From positions 32,519 to 96,518 of the IMG/VR virus record IMGVR_UViG_3300042511_000631: a DNA stretch of 64,000 nucleotides. The stretch is one strand, 5' to 3'. Source of the DNA: a virus. Below the pieces are notes generated by a model. That model did no database searches, had not been told where the DNA came from, and saw nothing but the letters and a program-made list of their open reading frames with translations. Below, in pieces: positions 16,014 to 53,976 of this stretch (its first letter is position 1; every line of letters begins with the position of its first letter). Position numbers and translations under genes: made by a program.

Positions 16014-16014
16014 C

Positions 16015-16422
16015 TTGCGAAACGGGGATATCAGCAACGAGCTCCCCAAAAGAATACTTGTAGTAAGTGACATATTCTTAACTGTAGAGCTCACGTTTAA
16101 AAAAGTATTAAAAGTTTTTCCTGTCGCAAAAATTGATAAAAAGATTCGTCGTGACATTTTAAGTTATCTCTACTTGTACACCACTAAACAAGGTGTTACT
16201 TTAGAACTTGTATCGTATGAGTTATCCGATGATGATCTAGCAAAAGTAATTGATATGCTTGACGACATGGGTACTAACCCGTTTAGATACTTCTCAGCGT
16301 ACGAATCAGTGAACCATCTAGTAGCGGAATTGCCTTATCGTCCAGAAGTTGTTGGTGTGCTTGATACACCAGAGCGACTGTTACGTTATGGCCATTGGGG
16401 ATTGGACTTTAATAGACTATGA
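16015..16422 (+). CDS. Hypothetical protein
   Basis: ORF in the replication operon, coupled to DnaB. Confidence 0.55.
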   Translation: MRNGDISNELPKRILVVSDIFLTVELTFKKVLKVFPVAKIDKKIRRDILSYLYLYTTKQGVTLELVSYELSDDDLAKVIDMLDDMGTNPFRYFSAYESVNHLVAELPYRPEVVGVLDTPERLLRYGHWGLDFNRL

Positions 16423-17645
16423 ACAACCAAGTAAAACTCATCAGTAAGATTCTTTCAGACCGAGATGTAACTTTAGTTCTTGAAAAGAATATTAACGAGT
16501 CTTGGTTTTCAGACGCCACAGATAAAAAAATATTTAAGTTTATTCAACAGCATTTTGTTAATTATCAAGAATGCCCAAGCTTAGATGTAATACTCGAGAA
16601 CTTTCCAACTTTTGAGATAACACCTTGCTTAGATAGCGTTGATTATTTAATTGATCGTTTAACTCAAGATCGTCGTAAGCAAAGAATTGTTGCCACACTT
16701 GGATCAGCTCTTGAAGCACTTGAAAGAGAACAAGACCACGAATCAGCTTTACTTGCTTTACAAAATGGAATTGTAAAGTTAGAAGAGGATGGGCTTAACA
16801 GCTCTACAGATTTAGAAATTACTATTGCTGCTAAGTCAGCGGTGGAAGAGTATGAGTGGCGAAAGAATAACCCCGGGCTATTAGGACTACCTACAGGGTT
16901 TCCTACTATTGATAGGGCTACTTCTGGTTTACAGAATGGCCAGTTAATTGTAATTATTGCTCCACCAAAAACTGGTAAGTCAACTCTTGCGTTACAGATT
17001 GCTACTAATTGTCACTTGAATAACAAAGTCCCATTGTTTTATTCGTTTGAGATGAGCAACAGCGAGCAGAAGAGTCGGTACTACGCCATGCGTGCTCGTA
17101 TTTCTCACAAGCGTTTAATGGAAGGTAACTTAACTTCGGAAGAAGAAAGTCGTTATTACCGTGTTGTTAAAGGCATTGAGAACATGCACGATAAGTTTTG
17201 GTTTAGCGACTCCTCTGGCGGTCAGACTGTAAGCGGTGTGGCTAGCAAGATTCAAAATAAGAATCCAGATATTGTTTTTATTGACGGAACTTACTTGATG
17301 ATTGATGAGCAGACTGGTGAGGCAAATACTCCTCAAGCTCTAACTAACATCACTCGTTCTTTAAAGCGTTTAGCTCAGAAGGTTAACAAGCCGATTGTTA
17401 TCTCTACTCAAGTACTGGCTTGGAAGATGAAAGGTGGAAAGGTAAACGCAGACGCTATTGGTTACTCATCTTCTTTTCACCAAGATGCTGACACTATCTT
17501 TGGTTTACAGCGAGAGACTGAAGATGTCGATGACACTCGTTTACTTAAAGTTGTAGCCAGCCGTAACTCTGGACTTAGCGAAGTTTCTCTATGCTGGGAC
17601 TGGGACAGCGGTCAGTTCCGTGAGCTTGGGGTTGAAGACCTATGA
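16419..17645 (+). CDS. dnaB: DnaB-like replicative helicase
   Basis: GLPTGF..D, APPKTGKS, SFEMS, LKRLA, QDAD motifs. Confidence 0.92.
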   Translation: MNNQVKLISKILSDRDVTLVLEKNINESWFSDATDKKIFKFIQQHFVNYQECPSLDVILENFPTFEITPCLDSVDYLIDRLTQDRRKQRIVATLGSALEALEREQDHESALLALQNGIVKLEEDGLNSSTDLEITIAAKSAVEEYEWRKNNPGLLGLPTGFPTIDRATSGLQNGQLIVIIAPPKTGKSTLALQIATNCHLNNKVPLFYSFEMSNSEQKSRYYAMRARISHKRLMEGNLTSEEESRYYRVVKGIENMHDKFWFSDSSGGQTVSGVASKIQNKNPDIVFIDGTYLMIDEQTGEANTPQALTNITRSLKRLAQKVNKPIVISTQVLAWKMKGGKVNADAIGYSSSFHQDADTIFGLQRETEDVDDTRLLKVVASRNSGLSEVSLCWDWDSGQFRELGVEDL

Positions 17646-18571
17646 CAGTTGAAGAGATGCAAGACACCCTTACGCGTTTAGGTATGGAGAGTATTGCTGT
17701 ACGCGGAGATGAAATCCAGAGCTATTGTCCAGCTCACAAAGATAGAACTGGTCGTGAAGACCGCAACCCGTCGTTTTGGATTAACTCCGACACTGGAGCT
17801 TTTATTTGTTTCTCCTGTCAGTTTAAAGGAAATGTTTACAGTTTAATTAGTTATGTAAGCGGTATTGAGTTTGATAAAGCTAAAGAATGGTTTGCTTCTC
17901 CTTCGCTTTTAGTTACTCGGTTTAACCGACTTATTGAAGAAAAGCGGGGGCCAATTGAAGAGCCAACTATTATTACTGAATCGATGCTTAGTGCTTTTGT
18001 AGACCCCCCGCAGGAAGCTTTAAACGCTAGAGGGATATCTTTAGCTGCTGCAAGAGCCTACGAGATTTGTTGGGATGCTAGACAAGACAATTGGATTATC
18101 CCTATTCGTGATTCTAAAACTCAAAAGCTTTTAGGCTGGCAGGAGAAGGGTTACAAACAGCGTTACTTTAACAACCGCCCGGCTAAGATTAAAAAAAGCA
18201 ATTCTTTATTTGGTTACAGCCAGTATGTAGGCGGGGACATGATTGTGGTTGAGTCCCCTTTAGATGTAGTGCGCTTAGCCTCAGTGGGGATTATGGGCGG
18301 GGTGGCTACTTACGGAGCTTTGATATCAGACTCTCAAGTTGGGTACTTAAGAGGAGCCGACCGATTGATCTTTGCTTTAGATAACGACGAAGCTGGAAAG
18401 AACGCGTCTATGAAAATGCTACATACCTGTAAGGCTCTTGATATGGAAGCGTGGTTCTTTAGTTATAGCAATACGGACATGAAAGATATTGGCGGGATGA
18501 GCCTTGATGAGGTACGTTTAGGGTTAACAAACGCCAAACACTTGGTACACGGATTGAGGGCAGTTCTATGA
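17642..18571 (+). CDS. dnaG: DNA primase (CHC2 Zn finger plus TOPRIM)
   Basis: CPAH..CFSC; VVES.LD; ALDNDEAG. Confidence 0.9.
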   Translation: MTVEEMQDTLTRLGMESIAVRGDEIQSYCPAHKDRTGREDRNPSFWINSDTGAFICFSCQFKGNVYSLISYVSGIEFDKAKEWFASPSLLVTRFNRLIEEKRGPIEEPTIITESMLSAFVDPPQEALNARGISLAAARAYEICWDARQDNWIIPIRDSKTQKLLGWQEKGYKQRYFNNRPAKIKKSNSLFGYSQYVGGDMIVVESPLDVVRLASVGIMGGVATYGALISDSQVGYLRGADRLIFALDNDEAGKNASMKMLHTCKALDMEAWFFSYSNTDMKDIGGMSLDEVRLGLTNAKHLVHGLRAVL

Positions 18572-22502: not shown

Positions 22503-22544
22503 TGAAGAGGCTAGGTTCAGGAGTGCGCCTAGCCTCTTCATTTT
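22503..22544 (+). terminator. Intrinsic terminator
   Basis: 13-bp stem TGAAGAGGCTAGG/CCTAGCCTCTTCA followed by TTTT. Confidence 0.7.
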
Positions 22545-22557
22545 AATTGGGAGACAA

Positions 22558-24525
22558 ATGGAACATATAATTACAACGATAGAACAACTTAACGCAATGG
22601 TTGAGCATTACATGAAACAAGACGCATTTGCTTTTGACGTTGAAACTGTTGGCGATCGCAGAGGCGTGCCAGCTGTTAACGAAGTACTTTGGATTAGCTT
22701 TGCCACACACAATCGCGGTGACGTTATTCCGTTAGGGCACCCTCATGGAGAGTTTATTAGTGAGGCTTTCCCATTGACCGGGCAAGGAGAAAAGCGTGTG
22801 CTTGCTGGTTTACAGGCAAGAGATTCTGATTACTCTAAAGATAAAAAGAAAGCACTTAAATCTTTTGGCCCAGCACCAGATCAGTTAAACCCTGCCGAAG
22901 TGTTTAAAGCGTTAGCCCCTCTATTTTTTAATGACAAGATTCTAACTATTGGCCACAACTTAGGTTTTGATTTAAGTTCTGTTGCCAAGTATTACAAAGG
23001 GCAGATTCCAAGTGGCCCTTACTTTGACACTCTTATGGGTTCTTTTCTTTACGACAACAAAAATAAAAACAAGGTTGGTCTTGATGATTGCTTAGATCGC
23101 GAGTTTGGCTACAAGATGAAAAAAGGTATTGGCCACATGGTTGAGATTTATTCATTTGATGAAGTAGCTAAGTACGCATATTTAGATGCCAAGTACACGT
23201 TTCTTTTGTGGAAAGCAATTAAACCTAAGATTGTTCAAGCAGAGGTTGATTATGTTATGAGCGTTGAAATGGACGTGTTAAAAGTGTTATGCGACATGAA
23301 GCTTACTGGCGCACCTATTGACATGGAGCAGTTACAGATTTTGTATGACAAGTTAAACATTGAGATTGAAGAAGTTAAATCCGAAATTTATAAGATTGGC
23401 GGCATCTTTAATATTAACTCAAACTCCGATAAGCAATACTTGTTGTATGGCCCAAAGGAGGAGGGCTGCCGCGGGTTGAAGCCTATGATTCTTACAGGTA
23501 AAGGCGAAAAGAACGAAGGCGCATTAAACTATAAAGACTACTCAGTTTCAGCTGAGGCGCTAGAGCCTTTCCGTGAAAAGGACGAGTTAGTAGGAACTAT
23601 TCTTAAATACTCTGACTTAAACAAATTGCTTAGCACCTACGTTATTCCATACCTAGGCGGGGAAGTAACTAAGACTACAAACGGAAAGACTAAGACAGAG
23701 ACCAAGGACAGCTTGCTAGTCAATGGTCGAATCTACGCAGATTTTATTCAATGGGGCGCAGAAACCGGTCGTTTCTCTAGCCGTAACCCTAATTTACAGA
23801 ACATCCCAAACCCTTCGGTAAGCGAAAATGGTCGCGCTATCCGTAATTTATTTAAAGCACCTGCTGGGTACAAGCTAGTGGTGGCTGACTATTCACAGAT
23901 TGAGCCACGCGTTATTGCTGCCATGTCACAAGATCCAATTATGTTAGACAACTATCTAACGGGCGGGGATATCTATACAACTGTAGGAAACACTATGGGG
24001 GTAGACCGTAAAGCTGGCAAGGTGTTGGTACTGGCTATGGCCTACGGCGTTGGCCCGGACAAGATAGCTAAGAGCATCGGGTGTACCGTTACAGAGGCTA
24101 GAAAGCTTCTCACAGACTTTGGGGCTAAGTTTCCAGCGGTCAATGAGTACCGCCAGTTAGTCATTGGTGTAGCCCGCAATCTAGGGTATGTGACCACAAT
24201 TCTTAAGCGCCGCCGATACCTACCAGATATTAACTCTAAAGTGGTTTCGTTTCGAGCAAGCTCAGAGCGACAAGCTTTCAACACGCGGATCCAAGGGTCT
24301 GCTGCGGATATTATTAAACTGGCTATGGTCAGAGCGCATGAGCGTTTGCCAAAAGAGGCTAAACTAATCCTTACAGTTCACGACGAACTGGTAGCTCTGA
24401 CTCCTGATAATCTGGTGGATGAGGCTAAAGAAGCGATTAGAGATGCAATGGAAGGTTTAATTCTATTGCCAATACCTTTAATTGCCGATATCTCTGTAGT
24501 TGAAAGGTGGGGTGATGCTAAGTGA
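22558..24525 (+). CDS. polA: Family A DNA polymerase with 3'-5' exonuclease
   Basis: FDVET exo motif, TGRFSSRNPNLQN, ADYSQIE, K...L...YG, VHDEL. Confidence 0.95.
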   Translation: MEHIITTIEQLNAMVEHYMKQDAFAFDVETVGDRRGVPAVNEVLWISFATHNRGDVIPLGHPHGEFISEAFPLTGQGEKRVLAGLQARDSDYSKDKKKALKSFGPAPDQLNPAEVFKALAPLFFNDKILTIGHNLGFDLSSVAKYYKGQIPSGPYFDTLMGSFLYDNKNKNKVGLDDCLDREFGYKMKKGIGHMVEIYSFDEVAKYAYLDAKYTFLLWKAIKPKIVQAEVDYVMSVEMDVLKVLCDMKLTGAPIDMEQLQILYDKLNIEIEEVKSEIYKIGGIFNINSNSDKQYLLYGPKEEGCRGLKPMILTGKGEKNEGALNYKDYSVSAEALEPFREKDELVGTILKYSDLNKLLSTYVIPYLGGEVTKTTNGKTKTETKDSLLVNGRIYADFIQWGAETGRFSSRNPNLQNIPNPSVSENGRAIRNLFKAPAGYKLVVADYSQIEPRVIAAMSQDPIMLDNYLTGGDIYTTVGNTMGVDRKAGKVLVLAMAYGVGPDKIAKSIGCTVTEARKLLTDFGAKFPAVNEYRQLVIGVARNLGYVTTILKRRRYLPDINSKVVSFRASSERQAFNTRIQGSAADIIKLAMVRAHERLPKEAKLILTVHDELVALTPDNLVDEAKEAIRDAMEGLILLPIPLIADISVVERWGDAK

Positions 24526-45583: not shown

Positions 45584-45754
45584 CTAGGCCACCTCTACGC
45601 GGAAGCCGAATGCTTCATACTGCTTAGCTAAGCGTTTAGCAGCAGCGGGAGTGAGTTCAGCTGATACAAACTCTTCACGGGTGATTAAGTCAATAATGCG
45701 GGTGGATACTTTCTTACGGGAGTTAAGCTTAGGTAGCTCGACTTCGGTGATCAT
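45584..45754 (-). CDS. 56-aa protein, first gene of the long leftward operon
   Basis: GAAAGG RBS, downstream of promoter 45810-45840. Confidence 0.55.
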   Translation of the reverse strand: MITEVELPKLNSRKKVSTRIIDLITREEFVSAELTPAAAKRLAKQYEAFGFRVEVA

Positions 45755-45809
45755 ATAGTTAACCTTTCAATAGAATAAATTAATCGCGGTGGCTATCACC
45801 ACTTTCCCT

Positions 45810-45840
45810 ATCATAGAGATAGACATATAGAGAGAGTCAA
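45810..45840 (-). promoter_or_regulatory. Leftward SigA-type promoter
   Basis: TTGACT-19-TATGAT followed by a 5' hairpin. Confidence 0.55.
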
Positions 45841-46110
45841 GCCAATATGGGCATATATAGCTATTGTTACCTAATCGTTATAATTGAGGGCTAGAGGGCT
45901 ACTTGGAAGCCTTGCCTCTCTCTCACTCTCTCTCTCTAGCTCATACACACTCTTATCAGCTAAGACTGTCCGGCAACCGGCAGATAATCTGGCCGCGCTG
46001 CTGGGTTGGCCGGTGAGCGGCCGGCAGTAGCCCAATATCGCTAAATAGCTATATCTCTTTGTCGACAATTGGCTAGCACGCCGGCCATAGCTTTGTCAAG
46101 CATCCGGCCG

Positions 46111-46126
46111 TGTTAGCTGCGTCACA
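46111..46126. promoter_or_regulatory. CRP/GlxR-like site
   Basis: TGTTA-GCTGCG-TCACA, one mismatch to TGTGA-N6-TCACA. Confidence 0.45.
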
Positions 46127-46143
46127 CGTTGATCTCTCTCTTT

Positions 46144-46187
46144 ACCCTATCCCGAAGGGATAAGGGGAGGGTGGGTCAACACAAACA
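46144..46187 (+). repeat. Hairpin/G4 repeat copy 1
   Basis: ACCCTATCCCGAAGGGATAAGGGGAGGGTGGGTCAACACAAACA. Confidence 0.95.
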
Positions 46188-46251
46188 AGTTGCCGAGCTG
46201 CGCCGGTCGCCCGGGCAGCTCAGCAAGCTGGCAGTGTTAGCTAATTCATCG

Positions 46252-46350
46252 TTAATCATCCTCTCTACAGATGTCGCACAGTCTTTCCGCGCAACATATT
46301 GACTCGACCGAGCAGCGTTCGCACCACTCTTTATCTAGATCACAGCTCAT
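46252..46350 (-). CDS. 32-aa Cys-rich microprotein
   Basis: MSCDLDKEWCERCSVESICCAERLCDIC; ATGA-coupled. Confidence 0.45.
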   Translation of the reverse strand: MSCDLDKEWCERCSVESICCAERLCDICREDD

Positions 46351-46673
46351 TTACACTCCAAGCTGTATAAAAGGTTCTCCGCGTACTCATACATCGGCGT
46401 GCCCTCAGCTACCTCTGTCCGGGCCCCGTCAAACCAGTCATGAAAGACATACTCCGCGGAAACGATCTCTCCGAACTTGTGCTTTATCTCTAAATAGTCA
46501 CTAGGGCCACCGTAGCTAAAACACACACGGGTGAACTCATATTGATCAATTGCGAGCGCGGGGTCGTCAAAATACTCATCTGGATCAGGGTGATCCATAA
46601 GCAGTCGTAGCTGCGCATTCCTCTGCGCTAGCTCAGCTTGAATGCGATCTTTACAAGGCTCATTACTACTCAT
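46347..46673 (-). CDS. Hypothetical protein
   Basis: Probable start MSSNEPC; SYGGPSD..DWFDGA motifs. Confidence 0.6.
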   Translation of the reverse strand: MSSNEPCKDRIQAELAQRNAQLRLLMDHPDPDEYFDDPALAIDQYEFTRVCFSYGGPSDYLEIKHKFGEIVSAEYVFHDWFDGARTEVAEGTPMYEYAENLLYSLECK

Positions 46674-46818
46674 TTTCACACCCGCACGCGCAGCTAACCG
46701 CTTCGGTAGCTGCTTCGAGCCCTTTCTCTTTAATATATTCGGTGGCGTAGAAAGAGGCCTCCCCAGCGGAGAGGCCAACCTCCATTCCCCAATCTTTAAG
46801 ACGATCAAACGTGCTCAT
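46666..46818 (-). CDS. 50-aa protein (not in ORF track)
   Basis: Coupled ORF MSTFDRLKDW. Confidence 0.45.
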   Translation of the reverse strand: MSTFDRLKDWGMEVGLSAGEASFYATEYIKEKGLEAATEAVSCACGCENE

Positions 46819-46994
46819 AGCTTCCCCTCAATATTCGTCGAATAGCACTCTTTACAAGTGCCTTCCTCAACCTCATGGAACTCTTTGTAAAAGACATCCT
46901 CAAGCTCACCTTTCTCATCGTACTCAGCTTCGTTATAGCTATTCTCACAATAAGTAAAGCGGCGGGTATTACCACAATCTAGACACTTAGGCAT
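46815..46994 (-). CDS. 59-aa acidic zinc-ribbon protein
   Basis: MPKCLDCG..CKEC; GGAGG RBS. Confidence 0.6.
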   Translation of the reverse strand: MPKCLDCGNTRRFTYCENSYNEAEYDEKGELEDVFYKEFHEVEEGTCKECYSTNIEGKL

Positions 46995-47277
46995 TTGTAA
47001 CCTCCAGTTTAGTAGTCCAGTCCGACATATCAGGGTAGTTCAGGCCGAATATAAAGCCACCGCCATTGCCTTCCTCATCTTGCGATATCTCTATCTTGAT
47101 TAGCTTGCCATTAGCAAGGCGCACCGAAAACTGCGGGAAGGAATCCTCACTACACTCAAGGCCAATTTTGCCCTTAAAGCTAATTATCTTTGCGCCCTCT
47201 AATTGGCTATAGTAACGCTTGTAAAACTCAGCAGCTTTAGCTGCGTGGTGATCGTTTAACGCACTCATCTCTCTCAT
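46987..47277 (-). CDS. Hypothetical protein
   Basis: SQDEEGNGGGF motif; first gene of its cassette. Confidence 0.6.
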   Translation of the reverse strand: MREMSALNDHHAAKAAEFYKRYYSQLEGAKIISFKGKIGLECSEDSFPQFSVRLANGKLIKIEISQDEEGNGGGFIFGLNYPDMSDWTTKLEVTNA

Positions 47278-47309
47278 CTCTCTATCAGTTGTGGTATCTC
47301 CACGGTCAT

Positions 47310-47348
47310 AAATTACTCTCTTTCAGCTACTTATCAACCGACACGCCG
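47310..47348 (-). promoter_or_regulatory. Cassette promoter with GACAC box
   Basis: CGGCGTGTCG then TTGATA-16-TAATTT. Confidence 0.55.
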
Positions 47349-47434
47349 CACTTTCGCAGCTATTTTTTTATAACAATATTGTTATCGACTCTCTCGGCGT
47401 GTCTACTTGACATTCCGGCCGACTCTCTCTCCAC

Positions 47435-47478
47435 ACCCTATCCCGAAGGGATAAGGGGAGGGTGGGCCAACACAAACA
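47435..47478 (+). repeat. Hairpin/G4 repeat copy 2
   Basis: ACCCTATCCCGAAGGGATAAGGGGAGGGTGGGCCAACACAAACA. Confidence 0.95.
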
Positions 47479-47506
47479 TTTGGCTTTTGGGTTTAGGCAT
47501 TTCCCT

Positions 47507-47560
47507 AAAATAAAAAGAGAAATGCCCCAGCTGCCGTCTAACAGCCAGGGCATTCTTTTC
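47507..47560 (-). terminator. Intrinsic terminator
   Basis: AATGCCC..GGGCATT stem with an A-rich left flank (U-tract on minus). Confidence 0.6.
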
Positions 47561-47580
47561 TCTGATAGGAGGAAACCTAT

Positions 47581-47862
47581 TTAATCACAACAGCCACAAC
47601 ATTCTACGCAGACCGGTTGATTATCTTTAATATGAGTCCGGCAAGCATACTCACTCATATTCATATCTGGATTCCGGCAGTCCTCACAGATGATCTCCGC
47701 TAATTGCTGCCATGTCATATCTCTTAAGTGCGGGGGTTCATCTTCATCTACATGAGTCCGATAATGGACTATCAGATCACTAGAGGTAGAGAAGTAACCA
47801 AAGCAATACTCACAGACTCTAGTTACCACAGCAACCCTCCCCATTATGGATCTCTTTAACAT
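47581..47862 (-). CDS. C2H2 zinc-finger plus Cys-cluster protein (true start likely ~47830-47844)
   Basis: CEYCFGYFSTSSDLIVHYRTH; CEDC..C..H..CVECCGCC. Confidence 0.65.
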   Translation of the reverse strand: MLKRSIMGRVAVVTRVCEYCFGYFSTSSDLIVHYRTHVDEDEPPHLRDMTWQQLAEIICEDCRNPDMNMSEYACRTHIKDNQPVCVECCGCCD

Positions 47863-47957
47863 CTAACCACCGTAGCACTTCACCGTCATAGACATCGGCG
47901 GTAAAGTTCATAATTGCGTTTAACCATTTTTCATCGATCTCAAGGGTGACTCTGTAG

Positions 47958-48377
47958 TTAGGCACTTGGCACCTCACTATGAGTCGACACGTATGAGTTC
48001 GCGCCCGGAACTACAACACTATTTAACTTGATAATCGCCTTATGAGGGCACGGGCAATCGGGGGTGGGCACATACTCCTCTTTCCAATAAGTAGTGATCT
48101 CCATTAGAGAGTCGCACTCGGTACAAAGATATTGGTGCTTAACCCATGCGCCAAAGTGTGTCTTATTGACCTTAGATACCAAGCCAAGTTCAGCGATCTG
48201 CGGAGAGAGTTCGTCAATCTCTTCATCTAACTCTACACGAATAGATATATAGTCATCATGGTCTTGATTCTGTCTAAGATAGTTCAGATCTACAGCAACG
48301 CCAATAGCCACATCTAGTAGTACCATGGCATCAGGGTCACCCTGTAAATACTTTTCTGCGATCTCGCGGTTGTTCAT
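47958..48377 (-). CDS. Hypothetical protein with zinc ribbon
   Basis: CTEC..CPC. Confidence 0.6.
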   Translation of the reverse strand: MNNREIAEKYLQGDPDAMVLLDVAIGVAVDLNYLRQNQDHDDYISIRVELDEEIDELSPQIAELGLVSKVNKTHFGAWVKHQYLCTECDSLMEITTYWKEEYVPTPDCPCPHKAIIKLNSVVVPGANSYVSTHSEVPSA

Positions 48378-48422
48378 ATTCTCACCTATCAGGATAAGTC
48401 GGCATTGTTACCGACAAAGCAC

Positions 48423-48461
48423 AAGGTAGTGCCTCTCTCAGTTAATTTCAACGACACGCCG
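48423..48461 (-). promoter_or_regulatory. Cassette promoter with GACAC box
   Basis: CGGCGTGTCG then TTGAAA-17-TACCTT. Confidence 0.65.
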
Positions 48462-48523
48462 TAAAATTACTATAACGATATTGTTATAAACTTAACGGCG
48501 TGTCGCCTTGACTCTCTCTCAAT

Positions 48524-48566
48524 ACCCTATCCCGAAGGGATAAGGGGAGGGTGGGCCAACACAAAC
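48524..48566 (+). repeat. Hairpin/G4 repeat copy 3
   Basis: Identical core to copy 2. Confidence 0.95.
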
Positions 48567-48612
48567 TAATAAGCATTGAGGCTTTGGGCAAAATAGTATT
48601 TTGGCATGCCCT

Positions 48613-48651
48613 AAAAAAAAGATCGCCCCCACCGGCAACCGGCAGGGGCGA
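48613..48651 (-). terminator. Intrinsic terminator
   Basis: TCGCCCC/GGGGCGA stem plus A8 (U8 on minus). Confidence 0.75.
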
Positions 48652-48664
48652 GCTTCTATTTAAT

Positions 48665-48823
48665 TTAATCGAAATAACCTTCAGCCCACAGCCCATTTAG
48701 AAAGACTGTCGCCATAGTTAAATTACCATGTAACCAAGGGTCATCAGTATCATTAACAGTAGTTAAAGCAGACTCAATAGCAGTAACCATGTCATCTAGG
48801 TCAGCTTTGGTATATCCCAGCAT
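48665..48823 (-). CDS. 52-aa protein (not in ORF track)
   Basis: MLGYTKADLDDM..LWAEGYFD. Confidence 0.5.
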   Translation of the reverse strand: MLGYTKADLDDMVTAIESALTTVNDTDDPWLHGNLTMATVFLNGLWAEGYFD

Positions 48824-48826
48824 GGC

Positions 48827-49297
48827 TCACCAACTCGACTGGTACTCGAACGACCAGTATTGTCCATATTTTGCGGTGTGTAGGCACTTGTCAACGATAG
48901 CAATCGTATTGCTAAGGCTTTGGTAATACCAGTCATCTCGCTCAGCATTACCAAAGAAAAACCCTTCGGTAGGTTCTAGCACTCCGCCACCTTTACCGCC
49001 AGCAGGTACCAGCAACTCTAACTGGCAAGCCTCTTTAAGTTTGACTAGATCGTCAACGCTTACATAATACGGCTTACAATTATCCTCACCGCCTTGGACA
49101 TTTTCAACGAACCAGTTATGAATTGCGTTAGCCTTGCGCCAATAACCAACATTGAAAGAGATCTCCATTGACGGGGATTGCTCTGATATTTCGACTTGCG
49201 GATATAAAGCTTTTAAGCGATCAAACTCGCTTGTATCGTCTTGGTGCGACCAGCCGCTTATATATTTTTTTGCGTATAAATACATATCTAAACCCAT
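48827..49297 (-). CDS. Conserved phage protein of unknown function
   Basis: MGLDMYL, YWRKANAIHNWFV, GFFFG, YQSSW. Confidence 0.7.
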   Translation of the reverse strand: MGLDMYLYAKKYISGWSHQDDTSEFDRLKALYPQVEISEQSPSMEISFNVGYWRKANAIHNWFVENVQGGEDNCKPYYVSVDDLVKLKEACQLELLVPAGGKGGGVLEPTEGFFFGNAERDDWYYQSLSNTIAIVDKCLHTAKYGQYWSFEYQSSW

Positions 49298-49321
49298 TTA
49301 CTTACTCCTATCTAGTAGTTT

Positions 49322-49351
49322 GGTGAGCAGTTTAATCTCATGCTCAGGAGA
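49322..49351 (-). ncRNA. Small pseudoknot motif, copy 2
   Basis: TCTC-CTGAGCAT-GAGA-TTAAACT-GCTCA. Confidence 0.6.
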
Positions 49352-49360
49352 GATAGGGGA

Positions 49361-49852
49361 TTACGCCAGCGTTTCGGCAGTAATTTTTTGGTTAGCGATC
49401 TCGTTGATGGCTTCAACGATCTTTGAGTGTAGCCCGTCACGCATTTGCTGAACTGATTCGGGTGACCAGCCAGCGCGGATTACGCGTACCACTAGCAAGG
49501 CTAGTGAGTAACTAGGATCTGCCACTAGACACTTTTCTAGTGACGCCATAGCGTCAGCGGTTAGCCCTACTTCATACTGATAAAGGGCTAATACAGCGTT
49601 AAACGGGGTGCGGTGATTCTCCGCGACATTTTCTGCTAGGTAAGCAAGATATTCAAACGCGGTCATAAAGTCTTTTGACTCTACTGTGAAACCGATTAGG
49701 TAATCGCGCAACTGAACTTCATTTGCTACGGCATAACCGATAATGTCTAGTGACAATGGGCTAATGAACTTCTTATCTAAAAAACGCTGATAATTGTTGT
49801 CAATTATCAGTTTTGCCTCTGAAACAGTAGGCAAGGCTTCAATGCTTAACAT
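49361..49852 (-). CDS. DUF4192-like helical-repeat protein
   Basis: LRD..LA..Y..G..A..L..DP.YSLA.L..AG..P. Confidence 0.6.
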   Translation of the reverse strand: MLSIEALPTVSEAKLIIDNNYQRFLDKKFISPLSLDIIGYAVANEVQLRDYLIGFTVESKDFMTAFEYLAYLAENVAENHRTPFNAVLALYQYEVGLTADAMASLEKCLVADPSYSLALLVVRVIRAGWSPESVQQMRDGLHSKIVEAINEIANQKITAETLA

Positions 49853-49900
49853 TGAAATCTCCTATCAAGAGTTACTAGACCGATCTGATCTAGTAAGAGC

Positions 49901-49940
49901 AATTTAATCTCTCGCCCTGTCAATGTAAAGCGACACGCCG
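49901..49940 (-). promoter_or_regulatory. Cassette promoter with GACAC box
   Basis: CGGCGTGTCG then TTTACA-17-TAAATT. Confidence 0.65.
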
Positions 49941-49985
49941 ACCATTTAGCAATTATTTTTTTATTTTTTACGCGCCTCTCTCAAT

Positions 49986-50029
49986 ACCCTATCCCGAAGG
50001 GATAAGGGGAGGGTGGGCCAACACAAACA
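49986..50029 (+). repeat. Hairpin/G4 repeat copy 4
   Basis: Identical core to copy 2. Confidence 0.95.
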
Positions 50030-50082
50030 TATTAGGCATTGGGAAAAGAAGTTTTGGCACCCTATATAAAACGCGGGCACAG

Positions 50083-50110
50083 AAAAGCCCCGGGGGGAAG
50101 GCCGGGGCTG
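50083..50110 (-). terminator. Intrinsic terminator
   Basis: AGCCCCGG/CCGGGGCT stem plus AAAA. Confidence 0.75.
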
Positions 50111-50135
50111 ATCTGTTTATCTGATAGGGATAAAG

Positions 50136-50228
50136 CTAGTTCTCGCAATCGCTACAGGTTGGTTGGCCGTCAACCAGATGATAGCCGGTAATTTCATCTA
50201 CCGGTGAGCCACAACTCCAGCATTTCAT
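50136..50228 (-). CDS. 30-aa C4 zinc-finger microprotein
   Basis: MKCWSCG..CSDCEN; ATGA-coupled to ArdC. Confidence 0.6.
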   Translation of the reverse strand: MKCWSCGSPVDEITGYHLVDGQPTCSDCEN

Positions 50229-51103
50229 GCGCTCACCTCTTCCTTGACCTCGGCGCCTGTAATACACGCAACCGCTTTTTGCGCCTTCGCGCTCGCCTTA
50301 AAGATTAGGCTGGTGTCATTTTTTAGCGCGGTGAGCCAATTCTTTACATAAGCGCCACTATTAGGCAGATCGAATTCGATTCCCGCGGTTGATAACAGCA
50401 TACATGAGCCTAATTCTGCTACCAATTCCTCTTTGGCGTATGACTCGCAACCAAACGCGCTTGGCTTGTCTGCGGAATCCTTCCAGCGATTCACGCGTGA
50501 TTCGTGACCTGTGGAGTGAATCATCTCATGCGCGAAAGTGTAAGCATGCTCGCCTGCGCTGTCGAATTGCTTAAGTGCTGGCAAGGTGATCGAATCTGCG
50601 CTAGGTGAATAAAATGCGCCCGCTTGCTCGCGATAGTAAAGTGTAGGGCGGTTTGCGTATCCTTCCCAGATCGCGTTAATACCTTCTAAAGGTGTTACAG
50701 GCTCGCGGGTGTCTAGGTACTTACTAGGCAATTCGACACCTTCGGTTTGATCTAGGTTGAATACGCTGTCTAACTTATACATGAAGAAAGATTTAGCTGG
50801 ATCGCCCGCTGGCACTTTCTTATCTATGCGCGACATGAACACCACCTTGGTGGCTTTCTCGCCTTTCTTAACGCTTCCGCCCAATTTCTTTGCTTGGTTG
50901 AAAGTAATCCATAGCGGGCGGGAATACTCTAAACCCGCGATAGATAATAGAAGGTTATTTATGCCTTGGTAAGGTTTGCCAGTTTGTAATGATGTCGGCA
51001 TATAGCCATCGGTTGCCCAACCCTTGCGCCATGGCGCATTGCCTTGTTCTAGTTCTGCCATGATCAACCCTGTAACCATGTCCTTGATTTCTGCTTGATT
51101 CAT
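50225..51103 (-). CDS. ardC: ArdC-family antirestriction protein (ssDNA-binding plus zincin domain)
   Basis: PW.K.W, Y.GIN..LL, W.TFNQA..GG.VKKGEK, VFN..Q, AFY.P..D.I..P, HEMIHSTGH, YA.EELVAE. Confidence 0.9.
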   Translation of the reverse strand: MNQAEIKDMVTGLIMAELEQGNAPWRKGWATDGYMPTSLQTGKPYQGINNLLLSIAGLEYSRPLWITFNQAKKLGGSVKKGEKATKVVFMSRIDKKVPAGDPAKSFFMYKLDSVFNLDQTEGVELPSKYLDTREPVTPLEGINAIWEGYANRPTLYYREQAGAFYSPSADSITLPALKQFDSAGEHAYTFAHEMIHSTGHESRVNRWKDSADKPSAFGCESYAKEELVAELGSCMLLSTAGIEFDLPNSGAYVKNWLTALKNDTSLIFKASAKAQKAVACITGAEVKEEVSA

Positions 51104-51145
51104 TTCTATCCCCTATCAAAGGTCACCCGATTAGGTGATGAGATG

Positions 51146-51185
51146 AAGGTATTCTCTATCTCTATGAATTACAAGCCACGCGCCC
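51146..51185 (-). promoter_or_regulatory. Cassette promoter
   Basis: Degenerate box GGGCGCGTGG then TTGTAA-17-TACCTT. Confidence 0.6.
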
Positions 51186-51214
51186 ATTTATTAGGTAACG
51201 ATTAGATAACGATT

Positions 51215-51258
51215 TAATCCACAGCTTTATACACAGGCTGTGGATAACCTGTGGATAA
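51215..51258. promoter_or_regulatory. Cluster of four DnaA boxes
   Basis: TAATCCACA, TTATACACA, TGTGGATAA, TGTGGATAA, spaced 3/3/2 nt. Confidence 0.8.
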
Positions 51259-51266
51259 CTCTCTCC

Positions 51267-51310
51267 ACCCTATCCCGAAGGGATAAGGGGTGGGAGGGCC
51301 AACACAAACA
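51267..51310 (+). repeat. Hairpin/G4 repeat copy 5 (loop bases swapped)
   Basis: ACCCTATCCCGAAGGGATAAGGGGTGGGAGGGCCAACACAAACA. Confidence 0.95.
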
Positions 51311-51341
51311 TTAGGCATCGGGAAATATTATTTGGCGCCCT

Positions 51342-51373
51342 AAAAAAAAGAACCCCCGCTGGGTGCGGGGGCT
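51342..51373 (-). terminator. Intrinsic terminator
   Basis: CCCCCGC/GCGGGGG stem plus A8. Confidence 0.8.
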
Positions 51374-51390
51374 CGATCGATAGGGTTTAT

Positions 51391-51495
51391 CTAAACAGCT
51401 TCACAATCATGTCCGTAATACCACTCACTAGCCTCATTTTCGTTGGCCAGATTAAATATCTTCCAACAGTGCGCGCATCTAATAACAGCTTTCAT
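51391..51495 (-). CDS. 34-aa zinc-binding microprotein
   Basis: CAHC..HDC; AGAAAGG RBS. Confidence 0.6.
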   Translation of the reverse strand: MKAVIRCAHCWKIFNLANENEASEWYYGHDCEAV

Positions 51496-51520
51496 TTTTT
51501 TACCTTTCTAAAGTTGATGT

Positions 51521-51550
51521 GGTGAGCCTTTTAAACCCATGCTCAGGGGC
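51521..51550 (-). ncRNA. Small pseudoknot motif, copy 3
   Basis: GCCC-CTGAGCAT-GGGT-TTAAAAG-GCTCA. Confidence 0.6.
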
Positions 51551-51555
51551 TAGTG

Positions 51556-51693
51556 CTATAACTGCGCTAACAAGCCGTTGTATTCATCCCATGTAATTTG
51601 CTTGGTGTAAAACTGAATTCCTAGTGCTATTTCTTTTTGTTTGCGATCTTCCGGGCCGGAAACAAAAGTTTCGTACCAAGTAGCGTAATCCAT
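51556..51693 (-). CDS. 45-aa protein
   Basis: AGAAAGGA RBS; MDYATWYETF. Confidence 0.55.
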   Translation of the reverse strand: MDYATWYETFVSGPEDRKQKEIALGIQFYTKQITWDEYNGLLAQL

Positions 51694-51716
51694 TTTATAA
51701 TCCTTTCTAGTAAGAG

Positions 51717-51746
51717 GGTGAGCCTTTTAAACCCATGCTCAGGGGT
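51717..51746 (-). ncRNA. Small pseudoknot motif, copy 4
   Basis: ACCC-CTGAGCAT-GGGT-TTAAAAG-GCTCA. Confidence 0.6.
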
Positions 51747-51753
51747 GGGGATC

Positions 51754-52116
51754 TTAGTAGTCTAGAGTTTCGTAATTCTCTAGGTAAGCGATATCCGATT
51801 CGGCAGCGGGGGTGCTGTAAATGCGGATAGATGAAGGAACCATGTCGTAAAGGTTTTCATCGGCAAGTTCGTAAGCCTTTTCAGATGAGCGGGCTTTTAC
51901 AGTAATTTCAGCGGTGTAAAGGAAAGAAACCTTTACAGGGAACTCAGTTTCTAGCCCCTCAAGTCCTAGGCTTTCTAGGAACTCATTTGCGGTGTCCTCG
52001 TCAATGTCATTGTCATTAACAAAGTCAATGAAGGTGGTGCGAACCTGCTCCTTGTAATCAACCAAGGCGTTACGAGTTGCGTTGAGTAACGCAATCGTTT
52101 CTGGCGCGATGTCCAT
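51754..52116 (-). CDS. Acidic hypothetical protein
   Basis: ATG 52116 after TGATAGGGG. Confidence 0.65.
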   Translation of the reverse strand: MDIAPETIALLNATRNALVDYKEQVRTTFIDFVNDNDIDEDTANEFLESLGLEGLETEFPVKVSFLYTAEITVKARSSEKAYELADENLYDMVPSSIRIYSTPAAESDIAYLENYETLDY

Positions 52117-52163
52117 TTTATCCCCTATCAAGAGATTAAGTACCAGCGGTTGCTGATAGGTGT

Positions 52164-52205
52164 ATTTTGACAGGTAGCAAGTAGTGAGTCAATAGCGACA
52201 CGCCC
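52164..52205 (-). promoter_or_regulatory. Cassette promoter with GACAC box
   Basis: GGGCGTGTCG then TTGACT-17-CAAAAT with extended TG. Confidence 0.65.
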
Positions 52206-52256
52206 ATGTCGTATCATCGTTATAAGATCGTTATAAATGACCCCCCCTAGGGTTAA

Positions 52257-52272
52257 TCGAACGCCTGTTCGA
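52257..52272. promoter_or_regulatory. Actinobacterial LexA SOS box
   Basis: TCGAAC-GCCT-GTTCGA, a perfect match to TCGAAC-N4-GTTCGA. Confidence 0.75.
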
Positions 52273-52369
52273 GATCTCCACCAAGGGCTAGCCGTACCTA
52301 ACATGTAGCCCTCAAAGCAGTAGCCTAAAATGACCGGGGGGTGCTAAAAATTTTAATGAGGTTACCTAC

Positions 52370-53712: not shown

Positions 53713-53976
53713 ATGGCTAAGTCAGAAGCGTGGACACGCAAAGAAGGACAGAACCCTGAAGGTGGTTTAAACGCTAAAGGCCGTGCTTCTTTAAAAGCTA
53801 AAGGTCAAAATATTAAACCTCCTGTTTCAAAAGAGAAAGCAGCTAAGTCTCCTAAGTCAGCTGCGCGTCGTAAATCATATTGTGCTCGTTCTGCCGGACA
53901 AGCTAAAGACTTTCCTAAGGCAGCAGCAGATCCAAACAGCCGTTTGAACAAAGCTCGCAGAAAATGGGACTGCTAA
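53713..53976 (+). CDS. Conserved basic aquatic-phage protein (DUF6321-like)
   Basis: AW.RKEG.NP.GGLN.KGR..RRKS.CAR..DPNSR.NK..RKW.C. Confidence 0.65.
   Translation: MAKSEAWTRKEGQNPEGGLNAKGRASLKAKGQNIKPPVSKEKAAKSPKSAARRKSYCARSAGQAKDFPKAAADPNSRLNKARRKWDC

What the first reader, a model, noticed from the sequence alone, without database searches (positions are those of the whole stretch)
45750..52280. Modular early-gene cassette array, each spacer loaded with different host master-regulator sites
Seen: five leftward units share one grammar (reading the minus strand): GGCGTGTCG box, -35, 16-17 nt, -10, short 5' hairpin, TGATAG(G)-type RBS, 2-5 small ORFs, intrinsic terminator, hairpin/G4 repeat. 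A sixth promoter at 45810-45840 shares only part of it. The variable DNA next to each repeat holds recognisable host sites: CRP-like (46111), paired GACAC boxes around an MtrA/GlnR-type repeat (47339-47403, 48452-48505), DnaA x4 (51215) and LexA (52257). Inference: either each payload cassette is wired to a different host-state input (cAMP, cell cycle, replication, SOS), or the first-entering DNA is a decoy array that titrates these regulators. I am not aware of a described system combining these.
Basis: partly seen in the sequence, partly recalled or inferred. Interest (0 to 1): 0.88.

Follow-up and report, generated by a model that had tools for sequence, protein, structure and literature searches.

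The report
Phage gene cassettes reading host regulators
An uncultured lake phage of actinobacteria splits its small accessory genes into five separately switched units. Their promoters carry the binding word of the host cell-cycle regulator WhiA, plus DnaA, LexA and CRP-type sites, so the phage probably reads the state of its host; binding is untested, and similar arrays were already seen in this scan.

Summary
Five leftward units (w47.3-52.2k) share this order: terminator, 60-nt conserved element, GA tract, operator words, sigma-A-type promoter, 5'-UTR hairpin, GATAGG-type RBS, 2-5 small ORFs.

- **GGCGTGTCG box:** it abuts the -35 in four units and is degenerate in the fifth. All five exact copies in the 96.5-kb genome lie here (0.24 expected). 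It is the complement of GACACGCC, the published M. tuberculosis WhiA/WhiB2 motif.
- **Host parallel:** the same 9-mer, in the same geometry, heads recA promoters in the presumptive host family and in most Actinomycetia searched. The phage has two WhiB-like genes but no WhiA, DnaA, LexA or Crp.
- **Other sites:** the DnaA cluster and the perfect LexA box exceed chance. The CRP-like box does not on its own, but it sits where relatives carry perfect boxes. The "MtrA/GlnR" label is unsupported.
- **Relatives:** they conserve the control modules but not the genes, and re-assort modules against genes, as with T4 PeSL cassettes.

"First-entering DNA" and a decoy role are unsupported, though titration is not excluded. 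The conserved element's function remains unknown. This scan found similar arrays before in other lake actinophages. My verdict is a new variant of a known kind.

The parts
52257..52272 (.). Perfect LexA (Cheo-type) box TCGAAC-N4-GTTCGA in the divergent control region
   Evidence: The CGAAC-N4-GTTCG core is the only copy in the 96.5-kb genome (0.04 expected). It matches the recA SOS boxes of the presumptive host family. It is absent at the homologous place in relative G005.
52216..52236 (-). Two direct TTATAACGAT repeats (GTTATC-type word, reversed orientation) upstream of P52
   Evidence: All 6 genome copies of TATAACRAT lie in this stretch.
52164..52204 (-). Promoter P52: WhiA-type box GGCGTGTCG (52196-52204), -35 TTGACT (52187-52192), -10 CAAAAT (52164-52169)
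   Evidence: The box-to-promoter geometry is shared across the phage family.
51391..52116 (-). Cassette 1: ORFs of 120, 45 and 34 aa, with no family hits
51350..51374 (-). Intrinsic terminator ending cassette 1
51257..51316 (-). Conserved junction element, copy 5 (C-rich block, TTC-loop hairpin, GA tract)
51214..51258 (.). DnaA-box cluster: two perfect TTATCCACA boxes and two one-mismatch boxes
   Evidence: A homologous module is 84% identical in G005 but sits in front of a different gene. A population variant carries extra boxes.
51146..51213 (-). Promoter P51: two ATCGTTAyC repeats (51194-51213), degenerate box GGCGCGTGG (51176-51184), -35 TTGTAA (51169-51174), -10 TACCTT (51146-51151)
50136..51103 (-). 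Cassette 2: ArdC-like anti-restriction protein (50225-51103, 292 aa) plus a 43-aa ORF
   Evidence: Pfam ArdcN 6.6e-28 and MPTase-PolyVal 3.2e-31. PHROG 7245 anti-restriction 3.5e-69.
49976..50109 (-). Terminator (50086-50109) and junction element copy 4 (49976-50035)
49901..49969 (-). Promoter P49: A-tract (49950-49969), box GGCGTGTCG (49931-49939), -35 TTTACA (49924-49929), -10 TAAATT (49901-49906)
48665..49852 (-). Cassette 3: 163 aa (DUF4192 C-terminal part), 156 aa (PHROG 7971) and 52 aa
48514..48651 (-). Terminator (48623-48651) and junction element copy 3 (48514-48573)
48423..48505 (-). Promoter P48: inverted box GACACGCC (48497-48504), palindrome TATAAC-N6-GTTATA (48471-48488), box GGCGTGTCG (48452-48460), -35 TTGAAA (48446-48451), -10 TACCTT (48423-48428)
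   Evidence: Part of its leader is 89% identical to a G005 leader that precedes a non-matching gene.
47581..48377 (-). Cassette 4: 139 aa, 52 aa and an 82-aa weak C2H2-like zinc-finger ORF
47425..47555 (-). Terminator (47520-47555) and junction element copy 2 (47425-47484)
47310..47404 (-). Promoter P47: inverted GACACGCC (47396-47403), palindrome ATAAC-N6-GTTAT (47369-47386), box GGCGTGTCG (47339-47347), -35 TTGATA (47332-47337), -10 TAATTT (47310-47315)
46252..47277 (-). Cassette 5: five small ORFs (96, 59, about 50, 114 and 32 aa)
   Evidence: Two of them have homologues in G005.
46134..46193 (-). Junction element copy 1, preceded by a GC hairpin without a T-run
46066..46126 (-). CRP-like box (46111-46126, one mismatch), then 11 nt, TTGACA (46094-46099), 18 nt, TAGCCA (46070-46075)
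   Evidence: The same box-11 nt-TTGACA spacing occurs in G005, L025 and L055. The box alone is not above chance.
45806..46068 (-). About 260 nt of non-coding DNA holding TTGTCGACAA, GGCTACTGC, a GA run and a GTTAT-type pair, followed by the sixth promoter (TTGACT 45835-45840, TATGAT 45810-45815)
   Evidence: It is 76% identical to G005 22665-22797.

Best explanation
This is the accessory, probably early, gene block of a ~96.5-kb lake myovirus that infects low-GC actinobacteria of the acI/Nanopelagicales type. It is divided into five self-contained leftward transcription units.

**Junction anatomy (shown).** Each junction is a composite control module in a fixed order:
1. an intrinsic terminator;
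2. a family-wide structured element;
3. a GA tract;
4. a variable set of operator words;
5. a sigma-A-type promoter whose -35 is abutted by GGCGTGTCG;
6. a 5'-UTR hairpin;
7. a GATAGG(G/A)G ribosome site.

**How the promoters work (inferred).** GGCGTGTCG is the complement of GACACGCC, the published WhiA motif. The same 9-mer, at the same distance from the -35 and -10, heads the recA promoter of the presumptive hosts. The promoters are therefore most likely read by host sigma-A RNA polymerase with WhiA and a WhiB-type partner. That partner could be host WhiB2 or one of the phage's two WhiB-like proteins. In effect they are recA-type promoters without the LexA operator.

**Extra inputs (inferred).** The other words add unit-specific inputs:
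- four DnaA boxes before the ArdC anti-restriction unit;
- a LexA box in the divergent region;
- a CRP-type box before a further promoter;
- a GTTATC-type word of unknown binder.

**Evolution (shown by comparison).** Relatives conserve the modules but not the genes, and re-assort modules against genes. The repeated junctions therefore also act as homology patches for cassette exchange, as PeSLs do in T4-type phages.
For: **Anatomy and statistics.**

**Phage and host identity.**
- The record is a 96.5-kb virus with tail sheath and baseplate genes and its own DnaB, helicase and PolA-type polymerase.
- It has two Wbl genes, GC of 44% and is held in lake-water runs.
- An 8-junction contig of the same kind is binned in a Ca. 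Nanopelagicaceae MAG.

**WhiA link.**
- GACACGCC is the M. tuberculosis WhiA ChIP-seq and IDAP-seq motif. WhiB2 peaks share it, and both proteins bind the recA promoter (PMC13473873).
- A structure shows WhiB bridging sigma-A region 4 to WhiA upstream of the -35 (PMC10243135).
- GGCGTGTCG followed within 30 nt by a LexA box occurs in 19 of 61 host-family genomes (0 controls) and in 87 of 151 genomes of the class (2 controls).
- The gene downstream is recA in 6 of 6 and at least 4 of 6 loci read.
- The full grammar (box, TTGnnn, 16-18 nt, TAnnnT) in the host family is found only at that promoter, in 5 genomes against 1 control.
- WhiA is present in 21 of 21 host-family genomes and absent from the phage.
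- The box-to-promoter geometry is fixed across the phage family.

**Other words.** They are enriched in 80 independent junctions. The CRP box sits at a fixed distance from the promoter. The phage has no DnaA, Crp or LexA domains of its own.

**Shuffling.** G005 shares ArdC (62% aa) and the gene order. However, the DnaA module and the P48 leader sit in front of different genes, cassettes are gained or lost, and ArdC there has a perfect box without DnaA boxes. DNA contigs of lake runs break at the elements.
Against: - No binding, transcription-start or timing data exist, so 'early' is inferred from gene type and position only.
- The box is not enriched genome-wide in the host family (187 against 187 controls in 41 genomes).
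- In the solved sepX complex, GACAC lies on the other strand. The published text read here gives no spacing with which to compare how the phage box abuts the -35.
- P51 has only a degenerate box.
- The LexA box lies about 55 nt upstream of the P52 box and overlaps no clear core promoter. It is not conserved in G005.
- The CRP-like box is not above chance on its own.
- The DnaA cluster could instead be an origin.
- The host assignment rests on indirect evidence.
- The conserved element, which is the most conserved part, is not explained by this model.
Confidence: 0.6

Rival explanations
1. Decoy or sink array. The WhiA, DnaA and LexA words exist mainly to titrate host regulators once the phage DNA is amplified. 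This would arrest division and replication initiation or trigger SOS, with promoter control being secondary.
For: The phage carries 5-6 exact WhiA words (G001 carries 12) on 96 kb, against about 4.6 per 1.4-Mb host-family genome. It also carries 7 perfect DnaA boxes against 0.77 expected. A population variant has extra DnaA boxes. Titration after replication would follow automatically (inference).
Against: The words sit at fixed distances from promoters. All 8 DnaA boxes in relatives have one orientation. There is only one LexA box and one weak CRP box. The site type varies from phage to phage, while the promoter grammar is constant. Nothing shows that this DNA enters first.
Confidence: 0.1
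2. The operator words are read by phage-encoded proteins, not host regulators. Candidates are the Wbl proteins, the small zinc-finger ORFs, or the basic DUF6321 protein. The resemblance to host sites would then be mimicry or chance.
For: The GTTATC-type word has no known host binder and is confined to the array. The box is not enriched genome-wide in hosts. The phage has two Wbl genes and several unannotated small proteins. DUF6321 is conserved in all 8 relatives.
Against: The 9-mer is identical to a class-wide recA promoter element and to the experimentally derived WhiA motif. The DnaA, LexA and CRP words equal the host consensus exactly. No phage homologue of those DNA-binding domains was found.
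Confidence: 0.15
3. The DnaA-box cluster, together with the adjacent AT-rich ATCGTTAyC repeats, is a phage replication origin. The repeated structured elements are replication or single-strand features rather than transcription modules.
For: Four boxes lie in 45 nt beside AT-rich 11-nt repeats. The phage has its own DnaB-type helicase but no DnaA. The long-form elements in relatives are multi-hairpin domains with z of -3 to -7.
Against: DnaA boxes occur at the same junction position in only 7 of 80 relatives' spacers, each in front of a promoter. The module moves between genes. A second perfect pair lies elsewhere in the genome beside a strong promoter-like site. GC skew shows no clear switch here.
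Confidence: 0.1

Closest known systems
PeSL (promoter-early stem-loop) cassettes of T4-type phages (Arbiol 2010, PMC2839356; Comeau 2014, PMC4122927)
   Same: In both, a repeated composite terminator-plus-promoter unit flanks small genes of unknown function in a plastic region. In both, the units are more conserved than the genes and appear to mediate gene exchange between related phages.
   Different: There is no sequence relation, and the phage and host groups differ. The unit here is much longer (about 150-250 nt). It contains an extra family-wide structured element and a variable block of host-regulator words. Recombination at the units is inferred here from one pairwise comparison only.
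WhiA/WhiB-activated promoters of actinobacteria (S. venezuelae sepX, PMC10243135; M. tuberculosis regulon including recA, PMC13473873)
   Same: The 8-bp GACACGCC word lies upstream of the -35 of a sigma-A-type promoter. A Wbl protein is available, and WhiA is present in the presumptive hosts.
   Different: These promoters are on a phage and drive accessory genes. The word lies on the template strand and abuts the -35. Binding and activation are untested. A phage Wbl as the partner is a hypothesis.
Actinobacterial recA promoter (LexA-regulated P2 region)
   Same: The order is identical: GGCGTGTCG, then 0-3 nt, TTGnnn, about 17 nt, TAnnnT.
   Different: The host promoter has the LexA box inside the spacer and the phage promoters do not. 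The phage's single LexA box lies about 55 nt upstream of the P52 box.
Similar arrays noted earlier in this scan in other lake actinophages (e1-6020515, e1-6073034, e1-5958869, e1-6019963, e1-5890834)
   Same: They share the terminator, folded element, CRP-type or PafBC-type words and promoter, and the reshuffled small genes.
   Different: This genome adds the DnaA cluster and the LexA box. It also adds the identification of the -35-adjacent box with the WhiA/recA word, tested here against host genomes.

Membership tests
PeSL-type mobile regulatory cassettes | A repeated short unit that combines a transcript-end stem-loop with an early-type promoter | tested here: met
   Five junctions have a terminator, a conserved element and a promoter. 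The unit is longer and more complex than a PeSL.
PeSL-type mobile regulatory cassettes | The units flank small genes, mostly of unknown function, in a region that differs between related phages | tested here: met
   The array holds 16 small ORFs, and only ArdC and a DUF4192 part are named. Only 2-7 of the array genes have homologues in each of 8 relatives.
PeSL-type mobile regulatory cassettes | Gene gain, loss or replacement between relatives is bounded by the units | tested here: inconclusive
   G000 and G005 differ by whole cassettes, and the modules sit before different genes. The pair is too diverged (about 67% DNA identity) to place breakpoints exactly.
PeSL-type mobile regulatory cassettes | Sequence relation to T4-type PeSLs in a T4-type phage | tested here: not met
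   The word set is different and the host is an actinobacterium. There is no match in 50,697 phage records. It works like a PeSL but is not a member.
WhiA/WhiB-dependent promoter | A GACACGCC (or GACAC) word | tested here: met
   The full 8 bp is exact at four promoters and at two inverted upstream copies. P51 matches 6 of 8. The motif is as printed in PMC13473873.
WhiA/WhiB-dependent promoter | The word lies upstream of the -35 of a sigma-A-type promoter | tested here: met
   The box ends 0-3 nt before TTGnnn and 23-26 nt before the -10. This holds across 73 family contexts. The published text says strand and spacing vary.
WhiA/WhiB-dependent promoter | WhiA and a Wbl partner are available in the infected cell | tested here: met
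   WhiA is in 21 of 21 genomes of the presumptive host family. The phage has two Wbl genes. The host assignment itself is indirect.
WhiA/WhiB-dependent promoter | WhiA binds the promoter and activates it together with WhiB | not testable with these tools
   This needs EMSA or IDAP-seq and reporter assays.
DnaA-box cluster | Several TTATCCACA-type boxes lie close together, above chance | tested here: met
   Two perfect and two one-mismatch boxes lie in 45 nt. The genome has 7 perfect boxes against 0.77 expected.
DnaA-box cluster | Conserved in relatives | tested here: met
   The G005 module is 84% identical but sits before a different gene. Boxes occur in 7 of 80 junctions, all in one orientation. 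A population variant has extra boxes.
LexA (Cheo-type) operator | A TCGAAC-N4-GTTCGA palindrome, above chance | tested here: met
   It is perfect, and its CGAAC-N4-GTTCG core occurs once against 0.04 expected.
LexA (Cheo-type) operator | It overlaps a core promoter and is conserved in relatives | tested here: not met
   It lies about 55 nt upstream of the P52 box. G005 has a TTGTCGAC word at the homologous place. Only 1 of 80 junctions has such a box.
CRP/GlxR-type site | TGTGA-N6-TCACA, above chance in this genome | tested here: not met
   It has one mismatch, with 1 site found against 2.8 expected.
CRP/GlxR-type site | Fixed position relative to a promoter, conserved in relatives | tested here: met
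   It lies 11 nt before TTGACA, as in G005, L025 and L055. Perfect boxes occur in 27 of 80 junctions.
MtrA/GlnR-type response-regulator repeat | A match to the known direct-repeat consensus of these regulators | tested here: inconclusive
   The word is ATAAC-N6-GTTAT (inverted) or GTTATC-N5-GTTATC (direct, 11-nt period). It resembles neither consensus as I recall them, and no library of sites was available.
G-quadruplex element | Four G-tracts are conserved across the element family | tested here: not met
   The motif is present in all 5 local copies but in only 18 of 71 independent copies.

The most novel reading that the evidence does not exclude
Actinophage WhiB-like proteins exist to capture host WhiA and sigma-A at phage promoters that copy the host recA/WhiA promoter word (GACACGCC). 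This would switch on an exchangeable array of anti-defence and takeover genes. Meanwhile the amplified WhiA, DnaA and LexA words on replicating phage DNA would drain these regulators from the host chromosome. The result would be a combined 'read and drain' device that also stops host division and replication initiation.
Probability: 0.15. Interest if true: 0.8.

Novelty: new variant of a known kind. Interest (0 to 1): 0.55.

Why it matters
- **Purpose of phage whiB genes.** These genes are very common in phages of actinobacteria and their purpose is still unclear. Here the WhiA word sits at the -35 of four or five promoters of a phage that carries two whiB-like genes. That gives a concrete, testable role: the phage Wbl proteins would drive phage promoters together with host WhiA.
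- **A conserved host promoter element.** GGCGTGTCG next to the LexA box is a conserved part of the recA promoter in most Actinomycetia searched. This ties the recently reported WhiA binding at recA to a defined site.
- **Ecology of acI bacteria.** For these abundant and hard-to-culture lake bacteria, the junction words (WhiA, DnaA, LexA, CRP here; PafBC-type, HspR-type and PHO-type in relatives) are a readable record of which host states matter to their phages.

Tried and rejected
- **Database searches with no hit.** Rfam gave nothing at gathering threshold and only one chance-level hit (E=0.87) at E up to 1. Distant blastn against 50,697 phage records gave no match.
- **T7-like or N4-like phage-polymerase promoter for the element (TATA-GGGAG look).** Rejected. 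No single-subunit polymerase was detected, although the control was silent. The 816-aa ORF has only a weak lectin hit. The spacing is variable.
- **Sigma-B/F-type promoter (GTTT...GGGTAT).** Rejected because the spacing is wrong.
- **G-quadruplex as the conserved feature.** Rejected.
- **Intrinsic terminator role for the element hairpin.** Rejected because no T-run follows it.
- **Element as host-derived sequence.** Rejected. Among 185,579 species genomes it occurs only on two small MAG contigs.
- **Deciding the functional strand from G-U pairs.** Inconclusive, because the antisense strand folds as well or better.
- **Metatranscriptome evidence.** One RNA library holds contigs with the element core and pieces of cassette genes. 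Contigs cannot show starts, ends or strand, and DNA carry-over is possible.
- **Genome-wide enrichment of the box in hosts.** None was found. The signal appears only at specific promoters.
- **PafBC-type (RecA-NDp-like) promoters.** They are enriched in relatives' junctions (7 of 80) but absent from this array. The consensus used was recalled from memory.
- **Literature search for the 9-mer as a literal string.** It returned only unrelated primer matches among the 15 of 149 papers listed.

Full report
**What the DNA is.** The window is the right two-thirds of a 96.5-kb IMG/VR virus record.
- The phage has tail sheath and baseplate genes, so it is a myovirus. It has its own DnaB-type helicase, a second helicase, a PolA-type polymerase and a ribonucleotide reductase.
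- GC is 44%. It carries two WhiB-like genes.
- Near-identical DNA is held in many lake-water runs.
- The 113-nt end repeat of the record, like the 114-123-nt ones of relatives, looks like the overlap of a circular assembly. Which DNA enters first is therefore unknown.
- The array lies 12-18 kb from the record end. It sits between the rightward replication/nucleotide block and a rightward block that starts at w52407.

**Check of the observation.** Reading the minus strand, five units follow one another.
- A ~60-nt element occurs five times. Its 23-nt core is exact in all copies, against none expected.
- In four junctions it follows a strong intrinsic terminator, and in the fifth a GC hairpin.
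- After the element come a GA tract, 40-110 nt of variable DNA, and then a promoter.
- GGCGTGTCG occurs five times in the whole genome, all here, against 0.24 expected.
- Four copies abut a -35, one is an inverted upstream copy, and P51 has a degenerate version.
- Each leader has a small hairpin and a GATAGG(G/A)G-type ribosome site.
- The units hold 3, 2, 3, 3 and 5 ORFs.
- Only two ORFs have names. One is an ArdC-like anti-restriction protein (ArdcN plus zincin domains; PHROG 7245, E=3.5e-69). The other has a DUF4192 C-terminal part.

**Host-type sites in this genome.**
- The LexA box at w52257-52272 is a perfect TCGAAC-N4-GTTCGA, and its CGAAC-N4-GTTCG core occurs once against 0.04 expected.
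- The DnaA cluster (w51214-51258) has two perfect and two one-mismatch boxes. The genome has 7 perfect boxes against 0.77 expected. A second perfect pair lies in an AT-rich divergent region outside the window.
- The CRP-like box has one mismatch and is not above chance by itself.
- All six copies of TATAACRAT in the genome lie in this stretch.

**Relatives.**
- The element's hairpin core occurs in 11 other IMG/VR contigs. Its 5' block (TGTTTGTGTTGRCCCNCCCNCC) occurs in 54 stretches.
- Among one genome for each of 185,579 bacterial and archaeal species, that block is found only on two small MAG contigs. One is a 7.3-kb piece with eight junctions, binned in a Ca. Nanopelagicaceae MAG.
- In 24 of 26 cases in nine complete genomes, the element is co-oriented with its flanking genes.
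- I collected 80 independent junctions from other contigs and compared them with overall density in the nine genomes:

| Word | Junctions with it | Enrichment |
|---|---|---|
| TGTGA-N6-TCACA (perfect) | 27 of 80 | 366x |
| DnaA box (all one orientation) | 7 of 80 | 12x |
| CGACACGCC | 16 of 80 | 30x |
| ATCGTTAT | 12 of 80 | 10x |
| LexA box | 1 of 80 | 9x (single hit) |

- The CRP box lies at a fixed distance from the promoter. It sits 11 nt before TTGACA, as in this window, or 5-6 nt before a GGGTGGCAGGTTT-type -35 region.
- The vocabulary is therefore real and family-wide, but which words a junction carries varies.

**Modules move relative to genes.**
- G005 is the closest relative. ArdC is 62% identical at the protein level, and 15 ORFs in and around the array have homologues in G005.
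- The DnaA module (w51245-51196) is 84% identical to G005 18011-18057. It precedes ArdC here but follows ArdC and precedes the DUF4192-like gene there.
- ArdC in G005 has a perfect GGCGTGTCG promoter without DnaA boxes.
- Part of the P48 leader is 89% identical to a G005 leader in front of a gene with no detectable similarity to it.
- Where this phage has the LexA box, G005 has a TTGTCGAC word.
- Other relatives share only 2-7 array genes but keep the junction grammar.
- This is how the PeSL cassettes of T4-type phages behave (PMC2839356; PMC4122927).

**The GGCGTGTCG box.**
- The phage has no WhiA, DnaA, Crp or LexA DNA-binding domain and no detectable phage RNA polymerase.
- In 41 genomes of the Nanopelagicaceae-level family, the 9-mer is not enriched overall (187 against 187 controls). 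It recurs at conserved loci, however: recA, the LysM/nrdR region, the rpsL leader and DUF4193.
- GGCGTGTCG followed within 30 nt by GAAC-N4-GTTC occurs once per genome in 19 of 61 family genomes (0 controls).
- It also occurs in 87 of 151 genomes of the class (2 controls). That tally includes three unpublished genomes (G102, G106, G112); without them it is 84 of 148.
- The downstream gene is recA in 6 of 6 and at least 4 of 6 loci read.
- The full phage grammar (box, 0-3 nt, TTGnnn, 16-18 nt, TAnnnT) is found in the host family only at that promoter, with the LexA box inside the spacer (5 genomes, 1 control).
- A 2026 paper reports GACACGCC as the WhiA motif in M. tuberculosis, by ChIP-seq and by in-vitro IDAP-seq. 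The motif is shared by WhiB2 peaks, and both proteins bind the recA promoter (PMC13473873).
- A cryo-EM study shows WhiB bridging sigma-A region 4 to WhiA bound at GACAC upstream of the -35. It states that strand and spacing vary between promoters (PMC10243135).
- WhiA is present in 21 of 21 host-family genomes.
- Across 73 box contexts in the phage family, TTG follows after 2 nt in 23. TAnnnT follows after 24-26 nt in 22, with only a smaller peak of 6 at offset 20 elsewhere.
- I found no paper linking phage promoters to the WhiA word.

**Most likely mechanism.** Confidence is about 0.6, and the steps below are inferred unless marked.
- The units are read by host sigma-A polymerase.
- Four or five promoters are WhiA/Wbl-type promoters copied from the host recA design without its LexA operator.
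- A phage Wbl may serve as the partner.
- DnaA, LexA, CRP-type and GTTATC-type words add unit-specific control.
- The repeated junctions also allow cassette exchange (shown by comparison).

A decoy role is less likely. The words keep fixed distances to the promoters, the DnaA boxes keep one orientation, and only single LexA and CRP sites are present. Titration of WhiA and DnaA by amplified phage DNA cannot be excluded, though.

**What remains unexplained.** The function of the conserved element is unknown.
- The short form has a C-rich block, a variable or absent apical hairpin, GGGAxT and GAGAGAG. It comes in three subfamilies that co-exist within single genomes. Its folding is only moderately better than shuffles (mean z of -2).
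- A long form in 11 relatives closes an 11-12-bp stem (TGTTTGTGTTGG/CCAACACAAAC). That stem encloses an unpaired CCCACCCACCC tract and 2-3 perfect hairpins of unrelated sequence (z of -3 to -7 in 10 of 11). This argues for selection on structure.
- The functional strand and the molecule (RNA, single-stranded DNA or a protein site) are undecided.
- An RNA library holds the core, but only as contigs.

**Relation to earlier notes of this scan.** Several follow-ups on other lake actinophages reached the same general reading: PeSL-like cassettes with CRP- or PafBC-type words. New here are the DnaA and LexA modules, the movement of modules relative to genes, and the identification of the -35-adjacent box with the WhiA/recA word.

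Noticed in passing
Host genomes: loci L133-L149 and the class-level search: GGCGTGTCG placed 6-12 nt before the LexA box is a conserved part of the recA promoter. It occurs in 19 of 61 Nanopelagicaceae-level genomes and 87 of 151 genomes of the class (84 of 148 without the unpublished G102, G106 and G112). It equals the WhiA motif GACACGCC reported for M. tuberculosis.
   Followed up: yes
window 49303-49348, 51502-51547, 51698-51743 (minus strand): A third repeat, CCTGAGCATGGGTTTAAAAGGCTCACC, lies between ORFs inside cassettes, each time before an AGAAAGG/ATAGGAG ribosome site. A related copy occurs in relative L013. It may be an intercistronic RNA structure.
   Followed up: no
window 45850-46100; G005 22540-22800: About 260 nt of non-coding DNA follows the CRP-type promoter and holds TTGTCGACAA, GGCTACTGC, a GA run and hairpins. 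The same words recur in the same order in many relatives (GGCTACTGC in 14 of 80 junctions, all in one orientation). It could be a non-coding transcript or another control region.
   Followed up: partly
L123 (contig binned in a Ca. Nanopelagicaceae MAG), whole 7.3 kb: There are eight junctions of the same architecture. Seven of them carry operator words that are 2-5 direct TGTTCAYC-type repeats with an 11-nt period, which resemble actinobacterial PHO boxes (recalled from memory). This suggests phosphate-state control in that phage.
   Followed up: no
Relatives L008, L013, L021, L027/G005, L034: Seven of 80 junction promoters carry TGTC[AG]GTG-N8-TAnnnT, the PafBC/RecA-NDp-type promoter word (consensus recalled from memory). 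There are only 4 copies in 870 kb of genome. None is in this window's array.
   Followed up: partly
Genome positions 4128 and 4160 (28.4 kb before the window): A second pair of perfect DnaA boxes lies in an AT-rich divergent intergenic region next to a near-consensus TTGACA-N17-TATATT, close to one of the two whiB-like genes. It is a candidate origin or another DnaA-controlled promoter.
   Followed up: no
window 53713-53976 (+): An 87-aa, very basic, lysine-rich DUF6321 protein lies next to the array. It is one of only two array-adjacent genes with homologues in nearly all eight relatives, at 58-94% identity in all eight. It is a candidate nucleic-acid binder.
   Followed up: no
window 52117-52140 and 49853-49875 (minus strand): The conserved CTCTTGATAGGAG-type sequence around the ribosome site can fold into a mini-hairpin that pairs the Shine-Dalgarno bases.
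   Followed up: no
G005 15570-16560: The closest relative has an extra gene of about 330 aa with an HNH-like C-terminus. It is inserted in the divergent control region, where this phage has cassette 1.
   Followed up: no
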